Source of the DNA: a virus
Taxonomy: Duplodnaviria; Caudoviricetes
IMG/VR virus record: IMGVR_UViG_3300016657_000022
Coordinates: 9,512-73,511 of that record
Reading direction: 5' to 3' (one strand)
DNA length: 64,000 nt
The notes under the pieces are model-generated. The model worked only from the letters and a program-made list of their open reading frames with translations, did no database searches and was not told the origin of the DNA. This document shows positions 12,914 to 17,063 of this stretch, piece by piece; positions within the stretch are counted from its first letter, which is position 1; each line of letters begins with the position of its first letter. The position numbers were made by a program, and so were the translations under genes.

Positions 12914-13510
12914 TCAGCCGAAAGGGTTCTTGTCGCCCATCAGCATCATGAGCATGAGCGGGTTCATGGCACCGGCTGCACCGCCGCCGAGACCGCCTGA
13001 CAGCATGAGCATCGGGAGCATGTCCTCGAAGTTGCCCTTGTCGCCGGTCATCATGCTCATCATCATGAGCTGGCCCATGTCCATGGAGCCACCTTCCGAA
13101 CCGCCGCCGAACAGGTTCGTGAACGACTTGATGATCGTCACGCCCTTCTCGATGCCCATCATGTTGACCTTGGTGGGCAGGAAGCGGGAGCTGTGGCCTT
13201 GCACGTTGAGCGTGCGGAGCGAACCGGACTCGGTGACTTCCTGAATGAAGCCGTATGCCTTCTTCTCGCTGACGAGAATGTCGCCGGTCTTCACCTGCGA
13301 TACAGGCGTCAGCATGGCGAACGCCGGGATGTCCATTCCGAAGAAGTCGAGCGGGTTCTTGCTCAGGCCCTCACCATCGAACGTGACGATGCCGGTGCCG
13401 GTCTTGATCCCGGTCAGGCCGGTCTGGAGGTCGTAGCTCACGTTTTCGATGGGCTGGATCATGGCCGACATTGCGGTGGCCATCTTGCTCTTCATATCCT
13501 TGAACATCAT
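12914..13510 (-). CDS. hypothetical protein, Met/Gly-rich C-terminus
   Basis: 198-aa ORF with RBS AGGAG and strong codon bias. Confidence 0.7.
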   Translation of the reverse strand: MMFKDMKSKMATAMSAMIQPIENVSYDLQTGLTGIKTGTGIVTFDGEGLSKNPLDFFGMDIPAFAMLTPVSQVKTGDILVSEKKAYGFIQEVTESGSLRTLNVQGHSSRFLPTKVNMMGIEKGVTIIKSFTNLFGGGSEGGSMDMGQLMMMSMMTGDKGNFEDMLPMLMLSGGLGGGAAGAMNPLMLMMLMGDKNPFG

Positions 13511-13560
13511 GCTTCTCCTGCGTCATTGATGGGTCGGAATTGACCCAAGGAAAGGGGAAT

Positions 13561-13980
13561 AAACTGAGTGTGCTGCTGGACGCCGTTGTTCCCATTAAGC
13601 CAGTCTCGTCTGACTCACACACCCCATGCCCAGCCGGTCCCTGACGGTTTGCAAGGATCCTTGACCAGACAGGCATGGCCTCGGGTCCGTCGAACGGTTT
13701 CCCTCGGTCTAACTGTAAAGGGTGGCAGGGAACTCTAACCTGCGTCACGTCCTCCCGCTTTTTAGCACGGGACACCCTAGCACGGACAGCTATTATGGGC
13801 CGCTTACGGTTTCGCCCATCGGGTGGTCGCCGTCTGTCCATGTCTCTATTTGGTTCCCCCGCCCAGCTTCTGCCTCGGGGTTCTGGCGCGTAAACACATC
13901 TGGGCTTGCGGCTTCGACAGAGCTTCCCTGTCTAGGCAGTCCTGCATTAACGTCTTAGTCCACCAGCATCACCGAGTTGA
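13561..13980 (-). ncRNA. unidentified large structured RNA (~420 nt)
   Basis: Gene-free interval; 5'/3' closing helix (AACUCGGUGAUGCUGGUGGAC / GUCCAGCAGCACACUCAGUU) and internal helices such as CAUGGACAG/CUGUCCGUG, GCCCAG/CUGGGC, CCAUGCC/GGCAUGG, GCAGG/CCUGC; GNRA loops on the minus strand. Confidence 0.5.
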
Positions 13981-14033
13981 ACTGCGGTGGGATAGCCTCG
14001 GGGAGACGGGAAGAGGACATTACTGATCTGGTA

Positions 14034-14150
14034 TGGCAGCCGTGGATGGACTCGAACCACCGACTATCTGGCCCGTCATCCTTAGTGAAGGCGCCTTCAC
14101 GCACAGGATGCTGCTAGGGTTTCGTGCTCTACCGACTGAGCTACACGGCT
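14034..14150 (-). tRNA. atypical tRNA-like RNA (117 nt): acceptor, D and T arms and CCA intact, anticodon arm replaced by an extended hairpin; no assignable anticodon
   Basis: AGCCGUG/CACGGCU acceptor, U8A9, GCUC-AGUCGGUA-GAGC D arm, GGUGG-UUCGAGU-CCAUC T arm, G73, encoded CCA; 63 nt between D and T arms. Confidence 0.75.
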
Positions 14151-14164
14151 ATACCAATCTCGAT

Positions 14165-14235
14165 CTATATGGCCGGTGGGTTTGAGCTGAGCCTACCCAC
14201 AAGAGCCGTCAAATGCTGGCCTATCGGCCATATAG
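14165..14235 (-). ncRNA. small stem-loop RNA candidate (71 nt)
   Basis: Perfect 11-bp terminal stem CUAUAUGGCCG/CGGCCAUAUAG with internal GUGGGU/ACCCAC hairpin. Confidence 0.35.
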
Positions 14236-14245
14236 AACGAGGAAC

Positions 14246-14258
14246 GCGGCGAAGCCGC
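14246..14258 (-). promoter_or_regulatory. candidate N4-type DNA hairpin promoter (GCGGC-GAA-GCCGC on template strand)
   Basis: GC-GAA-GC triloop as in N4 early promoters, upstream of the ncRNA island; the predicted +1 context is non-canonical. Confidence 0.35.
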
Positions 14259-14302
14259 AACCCAAGAAAAGAACTGACCGGAGATCCATCCTAAGTCAAG
14301 CC

Positions 14303-14335
14303 AAACGGGGAAGGGATCTCTCCCTTCCCCTTGGT
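14303..14335 (-). terminator. intrinsic terminator after Ig-domain gene
   Basis: GGGGAAGGGA-GAU-CCCUUCCCC stem plus GUUUGG. Confidence 0.6.
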
Positions 14336-14347
14336 TCAGCCGCAGGC

Positions 14348-14920
14348 TTACGCCGTGCAGGTGATGTTTTTGGTGGCGGTCTTGGCACCATCCTGCGAGG
14401 TCGCAGTGATGACCGCCGAGCCGTTGGCGACGCGAGTCACCAGACCCGTGCTCGACACCGTGGCAACGGCGAGGTTGCTGCTGGTGTAGGTGACGGTGCC
14501 ATTGCTGGCATTGGCCGGGGTCTTCGTGATGGCGAGCTGCACGGTGGGCGAAGCCACGGTCAGCGTGCTCGTGCCGGTGGGCGTGATGGCAATGCCCGTC
14601 AGCGCCACATAGTCGGTGTCGATATTGAGGGTGATGCCCCCCATATCGGTGATGTTGTCCGGGAACAGGAGTTCACCGGGAACGGCAACACCGTCCGACG
14701 CACGGGTGTGGTAGAGAGCATCACGGACGTGATGCCAGATGACGTGGCTCTCAGCCAACTGACCATCGCCCGGAATGAGCGGGTTGTTGCCGAGAGGATC
14801 GGCCAGCTCGTCATGCTTGAACGTGCCGATCTTGTTGGAACCAGCGGGAAGAGCGTCCCCGTTGGACTGGACAGTCACCACCTTGGTGGTGTTGTTATAG
14901 GCAATCTGATACTCAGCCAT
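14348..14920 (-). CDS. Ig-like (Big_2) domain virion decoration protein (N4 gp17-like position)
   Basis: C-terminal TGIAITP...TVQL...TPANASNGTVTYTSSNLAVATVSSTGLVT..ANGSAVITATSQDG. Confidence 0.8.
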   Translation of the reverse strand: MAEYQIAYNNTTKVVTVQSNGDALPAGSNKIGTFKHDELADPLGNNPLIPGDGQLAESHVIWHHVRDALYHTRASDGVAVPGELLFPDNITDMGGITLNIDTDYVALTGIAITPTGTSTLTVASPTVQLAITKTPANASNGTVTYTSSNLAVATVSSTGLVTRVANGSAVITATSQDGAKTATKNITCTA

Positions 14921-16244: not shown

Positions 16245-17063
16245 CAATTCTTCAACTTGGTTCGTTAATCCAAGCCAGCAGCATTACCTGCATCTCCACA
16301 TTGCTGTGGAGTTGGGACTATATCATACCACACTGAGGTTTATCAGTGGGTCCGGGCGCTTCGATAGCACTTGCTACCTACTCTACTAGATTCAGCTTAT
16401 GCTGCCGTTCGATAGTCTCTGCACCTTCCGATATTCCAAGATAGCCTCACACATCTCATAAAGATGCTCAATGTGAAGCTCGCCTTTGGCACGGTTTACG
16501 CACCAAGCAAGCCATTGAACATTATCCGGTGTGTAGCCTTTTGACGGATCTTTTTGATCCAAGGACAGGCACAGCGGATGCTCCTTTTCGAGATTAAGGG
16601 GAGCACCTGTCAAAGCACATGAACGCTTTTGTTTGATGAACAACTCGTAGAGTTGATCGGCAGTCACCACAGGGGGTTCTTTGCCTAGCTTTTTGCATCT
16701 ACCACGGGCGTCAACCAGTCGTTGGCGTATTGCTGACATCAGCAAACGATCTTCTTCTGGAATTGCCTTGAGCTTGCCTGACCCTCGATAACCGGGACGG
16801 GCTTTACGCCATTCAGCCGCTCGCTGTGCATTGCACTGCTTGCAGTAAGAATGGTGTGTCCTATGGGCATTTTTGAAACTGCTTGAGGACTTAGCTCTGG
16901 TGAATTGGTCAATGTTTTTGACCTCACCACATTGGTTGCATTTCTTGGTTTGCATATACCACCTAACTGGAAGTGATATATGCATATCGGCTTGGCTCAT
17001 GATTGTCCACTAGGGATGTTCCATGAGTTCACCCGGTTTTAAGGCCACCATGCTTATTGGTTA
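16245..17063 (-). mobile_element. group I intron (IA2-like), 819 nt
   Basis: P1 GGCCAU/GUGGCC with U-G at the 5' splice site; P3 CCGGGU/GCCCGG; P4 CUCAUG/CAUGAG; P7 CAGAGACUA...AUAUAGUCC; P9 CUCCACA-GCAA-UGUGGAG; terminal G; exon join restores the frame. Confidence 0.92.
16392..16955 (-). CDS. intron-encoded HNH-like homing endonuclease with N-terminal Zn finger
   Basis: CNQCGE...YCKQC; CALTG...SLDQKDPSKGYTPDNVQWLAWCVNRAKG; 3' end overlaps the intron core. Confidence 0.85.
   Translation of the reverse strand: MQTKKCNQCGEVKNIDQFTRAKSSSSFKNAHRTHHSYCKQCNAQRAAEWRKARPGYRGSGKLKAIPEEDRLLMSAIRQRLVDARGRCKKLGKEPPVVTADQLYELFIKQKRSCALTGAPLNLEKEHPLCLSLDQKDPSKGYTPDNVQWLAWCVNRAKGELHIEHLYEMCEAILEYRKVQRLSNGSIS

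What the first reader, a model, noticed from the sequence alone, without database searches (positions are those of the whole stretch)
14034..14150. CCA-ended tRNA mimic whose anticodon arm is replaced by a ~55-nt hairpin
The acceptor stem (A1-U72, G73, CCA), D arm and T arm are canonical. Between them are 63 nt instead of about 22, folding as CCC/GGG, CAUCCU/AGGAUG and GUGAAG-GCGC-CUUCAC, with no 7-nt U33 anticodon loop. It should be processable by RNase P and possibly chargeable but unable to decode, like a natural tRNA scaffold. Possible roles (inference): decoy for anticodon nucleases or tRNA-targeting toxins, T-box/RelA modulation, or a stable carrier for the inserted hairpin. T4 stable RNA species I/II are a loose precedent of unknown function. 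It is the only tRNA-like gene in the window.
Basis: partly seen in the sequence, partly recalled or inferred. Interest (0 to 1): 0.8.

Follow-up and report, generated by a model that had tools for sequence, protein, structure and literature searches.

The report
Anticodon-less tRNA-shaped gene in N4-like phage
An N4-like bacteriophage carries one tRNA-derived gene with a perfect tRNA body and CCA end but a 48-nt hairpin where the anticodon arm should be; it is real, probably cannot decode, has no detectable relatives, and resembles other odd phage tRNA genes already noted, so it is interesting but unproven.

Summary
On the minus strand (14150 to 14034) lies a 117-nt gene that passes the Rfam tRNA model (42.9 bits, cut-off 29), with 59 nt in place of the 17-nt anticodon arm. 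All core stems, all universal tertiary bases and the CCA end are intact. The body is tRNA-Trp/Gln-like (A1-U72, G73).

The host virus is a complete 73.5-kb N4-like phage of bacteria. That rules out an archaeal-type intron.

The hairpin is no more stable than shuffled sequence (z = -1.44). I found no homologue in viral, genome or metagenome collections, so selection cannot be tested.

One excision (34 nt after position 28) uncovers a perfect latent arm with anticodon AAG. This is the preferred junction of a widespread phage 'helix+ACAGCAA' insert class. However, a covariance model of that class does not match this element. AAG also conflicts with the Trp-like body.

Best reading (0.4): a non-decoding tRNA-shaped RNA module in an 840-nt ORF-free RNA tract. 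Rivals are a recently disrupted pseudogene (0.3) and a spliced insert (0.15).

This scan has noted comparable tRNA scaffolds on other DNA, and Lak megaphage tRNA 'introns' are published.

The parts
14034..14150 (-). Whole tRNA-shaped gene, 117 nt including the encoded CCA
   Evidence: Rfam RF00005 42.9 bits, model positions 1-71; sequence
14144..14150 (-). Acceptor 5' strand AGCCGUG (nt 1-7)
   Evidence: Pairs 7/7 with 14038-14044
14126..14141 (-). D arm GCUC-AGUCGGUA-GAGC (nt 10-25), with A14, G15, G18G19 and A21
14120..14124 (-). 5' connector CGAAA (nt 27-31). It occupies the place of the anticodon-stem 5' strand but cannot pair with the nt opposite it
14072..14119 (-). 48-nt hairpin arm (nt 32-79): CCC/GGG, CAUCCU/AGGAUG, GUGAAG-GCGC-CUUCAC. 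At the DNA level it holds a 16-bp perfect palindrome at 14085-14100
   Evidence: MFE equals this structure, -16.4 kcal/mol, z -1.44; palindrome
14089..14122 (-). 34-nt segment (nt 29-62) whose removal is the only single excision that yields a canonical anticodon arm
   Evidence: Solver: one solution, all Watson-Crick; 0.9% of shuffles give an all-WC solution and 3.9% give any
14074..14088 (-). 3' part of the latent arm, UCA-CUAAGGA-UGACG (nt 63-77). Together with C27 G28 (14123-14124) it gives anticodon AAG
   Evidence: with the cloverleaf core enforced this fold is -28.8 against -38.9 kcal/mol for the hairpin
14062..14071 (-). 3' connector CCAGAUAGUC. Its last five nt, UAGUC, equal the variable loop of a bacterial tRNA-Trp
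14045..14061 (-). T arm GGUGG-UUCGAGU-CCAUC
   Evidence: identical T arm in a Bacteroidaceae tRNA-Trp(CCA)
14034..14044 (-). Acceptor 3' strand CACGGCU, discriminator G73, and CCA
14151..14156 (-). Leader UGGUAU, predicted to pair with AUACCA (14034-14029; the first A is A76). This would extend the acceptor stem to 13 bp with G73-C74-C75 bulged
   Evidence: MFE of 14260-13990. Prediction only; the generic duplex test gives p about 0.09
14160..14250 (-). Upstream structured module: the 11-bp inverted repeat CUAUAUGGCCG/CGGCCAUAUAG encloses two hairpins and ends 14 nt before the gene
14307..14330 (-). Terminator-like hairpin that closes the upstream Big_2-domain gene (14348-14920)

Best explanation
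The gene derives from a proteobacterial-type tRNA, with a Trp/Gln-like identity set (A1-U72, G73, CCA). Its anticodon arm has been overwritten by a 48-nt hairpin.

As transcribed, the RNA keeps a flawless acceptor/D/T core and CCA end but shows no anticodon, so it cannot decode.

It lies inside an 840-nt ORF-free, hairpin-rich tract (13511-14347) of an N4-like phage. In the nearest relative the same tract holds a real tRNA-Arg and two more anticodon-less tRNA-like elements.

My committed reading is a tRNA-shaped RNA module. The tract would be transcribed as one RNA. RNase P and the 3'-trimming enzymes would recognise the acceptor/T-arm half. Cleavage would free a stable tRNA-like RNA and at the same time set the ends of the neighbouring structured RNAs, as mascRNA does for MALAT1.

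Shown: the anatomy, the genomic context, and the absence of a displayed anticodon. Inferred: transcription, RNase P processing and any function. A further role as a protein-docking arm or as a mimic that occupies a tRNA-binding factor is possible but has no support here.
For: The tRNA model hit is over the cut-off, with all 16 core pairs and all universal tertiary bases intact.

The long hairpin is the dominant fold: -38.9 against -28.8 kcal/mol for any fold that forms an anticodon arm.

A1-U72 with G73 occurs in 23 of 569 phage and bacterial tRNAs in session. Trp(cca) is the commonest type (7) and none is Leu. The only genome-wide exact match of the T arm plus variable end is a tRNA-Trp.

The tract has no credible ORF. 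It contains blocks 95-97% identical to relative L003, while the flanking gene is only 77% identical.

L003 has tRNA-like elements at 1998-2067 and 2649-2718 without anticodon loops. The latter is closed by a perfect 8-bp leader-trailer helix, CCAUGAAU/AUUCAUGG.

Our element is likewise predicted to be closed by a leader-trailer helix. For mascRNA, such a helix promotes RNase P processing (PMC8457004).
Against: There is no homologue anywhere, so there is no evidence of selection.

The hairpin is no more stable than shuffles.

No promoter was recognised on the minus strand.

At 13673-13629 the window keeps only a remnant of the L003 2649-2718 tRNA-like element. So such modules are dispensable and decay in this lineage.

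An intact core is also what a very recent disruption would leave.
Confidence: 0.4

Rival explanations
1. It is a recently inactivated tRNA gene (pseudogene). A tRNA-Trp-type gene was hit by a DNA-level event that replaced or expanded its anticodon arm, such as insertion of a palindromic segment or a template switch that lengthened the arm's own inverted repeat. It now has no function.
For: The hairpin includes a perfect 16-bp palindrome whose loop, GCGC, is itself self-complementary. That is typical of a DNA-level inverted repeat and not of an RNA-selected loop.

Arm stability is at chance level.

The lineage shows tRNA decay in this tract: L003 has two low-scoring tRNA-like elements (25.2 and 23.7 bits), and the window keeps only a fragment of one.

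The slot directly downstream of the Big_2 gene holds an ordinary tRNA-Arg in L003, so this is a tRNA gene site.

The phage carries homing-endonuclease domains, HNH_3/AP2 and Endonuclease_7.
Against: There is not one substitution in 16 core base pairs or in the invariant tertiary positions, and the CCA is kept. So the event would have to be very recent. The leader-trailer complementarity and the embedding among conserved RNA blocks are not expected for debris.
Confidence: 0.3
2. It is a real tRNA with an intervening sequence. The 34 nt after position 28 are removed from the transcript by host enzymes or by an unknown activity. The product is an 83-nt tRNA with arm CGUCA-CUAAGGA-UGACG (anticodon AAG, or IAG if deaminated) that reads CUU/CUC.
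For: It is the only single-excision solution. It is all Watson-Crick and has U33 and G37. An all-WC solution arises in 0.9% of shuffles.

The junction after position 28 is the preferred one in the widespread ACAGCAA insert class: 18 of 21 genes with a unique solution.

CUU plus CUC make up 50% of the phage's Leu codons.

'Enigmatic introns' in phage tRNAs are published (10.1101/356790).
Against: The 3' junction lies inside a perfect 6-bp helix, and there is no bulge-helix-bulge.

The element does not match the class model R1 at E<=10 with filters off.

The complete genome has no RtcB or Rnl ligase, and no splicing endonuclease appeared in the ORF surveys.

The body is Trp/Gln-like, not Leu-like: G73 instead of A73, and a class I D arm.

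The solution needs a 12-nt variable region, whereas the matching tRNA-Trp has UAGUC.

No intron-less twin of the arm exists in viral contigs.

ARAGORN accepts wrong-register deletions equally, so that test gives no support.
Confidence: 0.15
3. It is a permanent docking arm. The tRNA body is a scaffold that presents the inserted hairpin to a phage or host RNA-binding protein, in the manner of Ro60/Y-RNA-like particles.
For: L031, a tRNA scaffold with a replaced anticodon arm whose insert starts like ours (GAGCA-CGAAAAC), lies about 600 nt upstream of a true Ro60 homologue: vWA_Ro60 69.7 bits, TROVE 26 bits.

Two ACAGCAA-class phages have Ro60-sized ORFs with weak vWA_Ro60 matches.

Earlier notes of this scan reached the same reading for that class.
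Against: Neither our phage nor G003 has a TROVE or vWA_Ro60 match. The window has no ACAGCAA handle in the element and no L031-type motif. The insert alone folds weakly (-6.4 kcal/mol) and instead pairs with the adjacent arm sequence. The only unexplained Ro60-sized ORF gave nothing in the atlas.
Confidence: 0.1

Closest known systems
Phage tRNA genes with 'enigmatic introns' (Lak megaphages; Devoto et al., preprint 10.1101/356790, Nat Microbiol 2019, PMC6784885)
   Same: An oversized phage tRNA gene that bacterial tRNA finders reject. It has an intact tRNA body and an extra segment in the anticodon arm, and no known splicing mechanism in a bacterial host.
   Different: Those occur in jumbo gut phages and in several tRNAs per genome. 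They are conserved across cohorts and leave recognisable anticodons that match the isotype. Ours is a single copy in a 73-kb N4-like phage, has no relatives, and its latent anticodon (AAG) conflicts with the body's identity set.
The 'helix + ACAGCAA' insert class of phage tRNA-shaped genes
   Same: The insert enters the 5' strand of the anticodon stem after position 28, next to the same 5' sequence ...GGUAGAGC(A/G)CG. Precise removal restores a perfect arm.
   Different: The defining 7-bp covarying helix followed by ACAGCAA is absent (model R1: no hit). Our insert does not fold on its own and instead masks the latent arm. No Ro60-like gene is detectable.
mascRNA / menRNA (tRNA-like 3' processing modules of MALAT1 and NEAT1; PMC8457004)
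   Same: A tRNA-shaped element with a defective anticodon region next to a structured non-coding RNA. An acceptor stem extended by leader-trailer pairing is predicted here and was shown there to aid RNase P.
   Different: Those are eukaryotic nuclear RNAs with CCA added after cleavage, and processing was shown experimentally. Here everything beyond the sequence is inferred.
YrlA-type bacterial and phage Y RNAs (Rfam RF02553)
   Same: A tRNA mimic that uses D- and T-arm-like elements without decoding.
   Different: In YrlA the RNA ends lie in the Ro60-binding stem, not in an acceptor stem with CCA. There is no RF02553 hit at E<=10 in 13500-14700 and no Ro60 gene.
T4 stable RNAs species 1 and 2
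   Same: Small stable phage RNAs of unknown function encoded with tRNA genes.

Membership tests
Canonical tRNA (Rfam RF00005) | Score at or above the curated gathering cut-off | tested here: met
   42.9 bits against 29
Canonical tRNA (Rfam RF00005) | 7-bp acceptor stem, D and T arms, and the conserved tertiary nucleotides | tested here: met
   All present
Canonical tRNA (Rfam RF00005) | 5-bp anticodon stem with a 7-nt loop (U33, purine 37) directly after position 26 | tested here: not met
   59 nt replace the 17. The best contiguous or single-cut solution with a normal variable loop reaches 2 of 5 pairs. ARAGORN finds no gene
Helix+ACAGCAA insert class | 7-bp covarying helix followed by ACAGCAA (covariance model R1 from 14 members; 6 of 7 pairs covary) | tested here: not met
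   No hit in 14034-14150 at E<=10 with filters off. Members score 22-42 bits
Helix+ACAGCAA insert class | Insert junction after position 28 in the anticodon-stem 5' strand | tested here: met
   This is the only canonical solution for our element. 18 of 21 class genes with a unique solution share it
Helix+ACAGCAA insert class | Ro60-like protein gene in the same genome (a claim of earlier notes) | tested here: not met
   No TROVE or vWA_Ro60 hit in G000. Weak hits in class phages G004 and G006
Archaeal/eukaryal endonuclease-spliced tRNA intron | Bulge-helix-bulge at the two junctions, and a host with a splicing endonuclease | tested here: not met
   The 3' junction lies inside a 6-bp helix. The virus is an N4-like phage whose named relatives infect Pseudomonas. 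No endonuclease domain was found in the ORF surveys
Group I intron in a tRNA gene | Ribozyme core P1-P9, usually 200 nt or more | tested here: not met
   The extra sequence is 34-42 nt. No intron family hit at E<=10 in 13500-14700
tmRNA (one- or two-piece) | G3-U70 alanine identity pair, tag reading frame, pseudoknots | tested here: not met
   Positions 3 and 70 are C-G. Only 63 nt lie between the D and T arms. The best clan member is tRNA
YrlA Y RNA (RF02553) | Model match, Ro60-binding stem formed by the RNA ends, linked rsr gene | tested here: not met
mascRNA-like processing module | RNase P cleavage at the 5' end that releases or matures a neighbouring structured RNA | not testable with these tools
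   Only the structural prerequisites are seen: acceptor/T half, predicted leader-trailer helix, and flanking structured RNAs

The most novel reading that the evidence does not exclude
Phages of very different kinds, from gut jumbo phages to this GC-rich N4-like podovirus, may reuse tRNA bodies as scaffolds by placing foreign arms in the 5' strand of the anticodon stem after position 28. This element would be a functional, handle-less or differently handled member. It would be a stable CCA-ended tRNA-Trp mimic whose latent anticodon arm is masked by the insert, acting as a processing module or as bait for a tRNA-binding factor.
Probability: 0.25. Interest if true: 0.7.

Novelty: new variant of a known kind. 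Interest (0 to 1): 0.42.

Why it matters
If the RNA is made and stable, it would extend the growing set of phage tRNA look-alikes to Schitoviridae. It would also provide a compact natural example of a tRNA body used for something other than decoding, such as punctuating a non-coding RNA operon or occupying a tRNA-binding protein.

The comparison made here also shows that position 28/29 is a recurrent entry point for foreign arms in phage tRNA genes. That bears on the unresolved question of whether the 'enigmatic introns' of phage tRNAs are spliced at all.

If it is a fresh pseudogene, it is ordinary.

Tried and rejected
- **Archaeal BHB intron.** Rejected once the virus proved to be an N4-like phage and the junctions showed no BHB.
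- **Hammerhead or other small ribozyme.** This was prompted by CGAAAC in the element and a weak Hammerhead_3 hit in L003. The CUGAUGA core is absent and there is no Rfam hit at E<=10.
- **Single-cut restoration with a normal 4-6-nt variable loop.** The best result is 2 of 5 stem pairs.
- **Membership in the ACAGCAA class.** Rejected by model R1.
- **ARAGORN on in-silico spliced forms.** Uninformative, because wrong-register deletions pass too.
- **Homologue searches.** All came up empty or chance:
  - blastn against phages;
  - exact and gapped patterns in viral, genome and metagenome contigs;
  - synteny through both flanking proteins;
  - a probe from the conserved downstream block, where the six metagenome hits were chance 18-mers.
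- **Repeat copies of the palindrome in the window.** None.
- **RNA ligase, RtcB and Ro60 searches in the genome.** None.
- **Atlas look-up of the unexplained 505-aa ORF.** Nothing.
- **K-turn reading of the CGAAA/CCAGA internal loop.** Considered by eye only. The non-bulged strand does not fit, so I dropped it.

Full report
**What is there**

The minus strand from 14150 to 14034 encodes a 117-nt RNA. The Rfam tRNA model matches it end to end at 42.9 bits (cut-off 29), with 59 nt in place of the 17-nt anticodon arm. ARAGORN in bacterial mode reports nothing.

The acceptor stem (A1-U72), G73 and CCA, the D arm, the T arm and every universal tertiary nucleotide are present without a single mismatch. 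It is the only tRNA hit in the window and in the complete 73.5-kb viral record.

Two cautions apply. The arm is no more stable than dinucleotide shuffles (z = -1.44; 17 of 200 fold as well). One perfect 16-bp palindrome per window is about the chance expectation.

**What carries it**

The record is an N4-like podovirus. It has a 3448-aa ORF of virion-RNA-polymerase size, an N4-type portal and a primase. The nearest named records are Pseudomonas phages of the Schitoviridae. The host is therefore bacterial, and my first idea, an archaeal endonuclease-spliced intron, falls.

The gene sits in an 840-nt stretch with no credible ORF. This stretch lies between a Big_2-domain gene, closed by a terminator-like hairpin, and a 198-aa gene.

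The only accessible relative, G003 (locus L003), has a 2.3-kb ORF-poor tract at the same place. That tract holds:
- an ordinary tRNA-Arg(TCT) with encoded CCA;
- two sub-threshold tRNA-like elements that lack anticodon loops, one with GCUC-GGAA-GAGC in place of the arm;
- weak hammerhead-like and YrlA-like hits.

Short blocks of the tract are 95-97% identical between the two phages, while the flanking gene is 77% identical. So parts of the tract are under constraint. However, one tRNA-like element of G003 is reduced to a 45-nt remnant in the window. The tRNA-shaped modules therefore come and go.

**Is it an interrupted tRNA?**

With a normal variable loop, no single excision restores an anticodon arm. 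With the variable length left free, exactly one solution exists. Cutting after G28 and removing 34 nt gives CGUCA-CUAAGGA-UGACG, which is all Watson-Crick and has U33 and G37, followed by a 12-nt variable region. Only 0.9% of shuffled middles give an all-WC solution.

A pattern scan for the same D and T arms with an oversized middle found many phage genes of this build. In a widespread class the insert is a 7-bp covarying helix followed by ACAGCAA. This class appears in more than 115 viral contigs and 6 of its 7 helix pairs covary. Among its genes with a unique canonical solution, 18 of 21 also have the junction after position 28, mostly in tRNA-Asn(GUU). The shared junction is the strongest argument that our element began as, or still is, an insert-bearing tRNA.

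Several results point the other way:
- A covariance model of that class finds nothing in our element with filters off, while members score 22-42 bits.
- The putative 3' junction lies inside a perfect helix.
- The insert does not fold on its own. It pairs with the latent arm, so the hairpin fold is about 10 kcal/mol more stable than any fold that shows the anticodon.
- The complete genome has no RtcB and no Rnl-type ligase, and the ORF surveys found no splicing endonuclease.
- The body is not Leu-like. A1-U72 with G73 is found mainly in Trp and Gln tRNAs among 569 tRNAs in session, and never in Leu.
- The only genome-wide exact match to the T arm plus variable end is a tRNA-Trp(CCA) with the 5-nt loop UAGUC. 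That makes a 12-nt variable region unlikely to be ancestral.
- CUU and CUC are common codons in the phage, so an AAG tRNA would have work to do. I cannot see which synthetase would charge it.

**What the comparison classes are**

Devoto et al. reported 'enigmatic introns' in Lak megaphage tRNAs and gave no mechanism. Earlier notes of this scan read the ACAGCAA insert as a permanent handle for a phage Ro60-like protein.

I tested that lead in part. Pfam TROVE finds nothing in the class phages. Two of them do have Ro60-sized ORFs with weak vWA_Ro60 matches. L031, another tRNA scaffold with a replaced arm, lies next to a clear Ro60 homologue.

Our phage and G003 have no such gene, and the window has neither handle motif. 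So the docking-arm idea is a possibility by analogy only.

**Committed reading**

As transcribed, the RNA is a tRNA-Trp-type body without a displayed anticodon, embedded among structured RNAs. Its flanks are predicted to extend the acceptor stem by six pairs, using A76. The G003 tRNA-like element at L003:2649-2718 is closed by a perfect 8-bp leader-trailer helix. For mascRNA, such an extension promotes RNase P cleavage and thereby matures the neighbouring RNA.

I therefore favour a non-decoding tRNA-shaped module that is cut out by the tRNA end-processing enzymes and punctuates the tract (0.4). The alternatives are:
- a very recent insertional pseudogene (0.3);
- a spliced insert (0.15);
- a protein-docking arm (0.1).

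Everything beyond anatomy and context is inference. No expression data could be obtained, and no homologue exists in the searched collections.

**Verdict**

The interpretation as a non-decoding tRNA mimic is partly supported. The specific decoy ideas have no support.

The element is a new variant of a kind already seen in phages. Those precedents are published for Lak phages and noted repeatedly by this scan on other DNA.

Interest is moderate.

Noticed in passing
L005, L014, L016, L026, L007, L029 and more than 100 further loci (L056-L128 and beyond): There is a widespread class of phage tRNA-shaped genes with a 34-54-nt insert made of a 7-bp covarying helix followed by ACAGCAA(U). Several such genes often occur per phage. 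When one canonical solution exists, the junction is after position 28 in 18 of 21 genes (13 are Asn-GUU). Model R1 recognises members at 22-42 bits.
   Followed up: partly
L074:961, L080:1980, L089:1522, L059:9601, L061:1602, L102:5203, L108:11193 (gene starts): A second class of phage tRNA inserts is 41-77 nt long and enters after position 33 or 34. Several of these inserts contain a T-arm-like minihelix (...GUUCAAGAC... or ...GUUCAAAUC...). [quoted passage not shown]
   Followed up: no
L031:2879-3003 and L031:3590-5143: A Cardiobacterium MAG has a tRNA scaffold with a GC-rich replacement of the anticodon arm. It lies about 600 nt upstream of a true Ro60 homologue (vWA_Ro60 69.7 bits, TROVE 26 bits). 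The motif ...GAAUGC.G..AGGAUUACAU... is repeated five or six times in and after the gene, and one copy is followed by a lone T arm.
   Followed up: partly
L003:668-3000 (relative G003): This is a 2.3-kb ORF-poor tract. It holds tRNA-Arg(TCT) at 698-771, a hammerhead-III-like core without stem I at 1131-1170 (27 bits), a YrlA-like hit at 1536-1636 (22 bits), and anticodon-less tRNA-like elements at 1998-2067 and 2649-2718. The last is closed by the 8-bp helix CCAUGAAU/AUUCAUGG.
   Followed up: partly
window 13567-13628 and 13674-13712 (minus strand): These non-coding blocks are 97% and 95% identical to L003, far above the 77% of the adjacent gene. They flank a variable segment that is a tRNA-like element in L003 and a 45-nt remnant in the window.
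   Followed up: partly
window 14160-14250 (minus strand): An 11-bp inverted repeat, CUAUAUGGCCG/CGGCCAUAUAG, encloses two hairpins and ends 14 nt upstream of the tRNA-shaped gene. It may be a further RNA module.
   Followed up: no
window 16297-16313 (minus strand): A weak R1 hit (10 bits) shows ACAGCAAUGUG. It is probably chance.
   Followed up: no
L010:2958-3395 and L010:7508-7607; L013:5423-5486 and L013:5513-5638: Other odd tRNA scaffolds lie near large or special RNAs. One is in a phage with a GOLLD RNA (194.9 bits). Another is directly upstream of a 64-nt tmRNA-model hit (59 bits).
   Followed up: no
L006:5007-5110, L018:2066-2163, L027:7118-7222: A normal tRNA (tRNA-Phe(GAA) in L006 and L018) is followed within about 20 nt by a lone T-arm plus acceptor-like 3' segment.
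   Followed up: no
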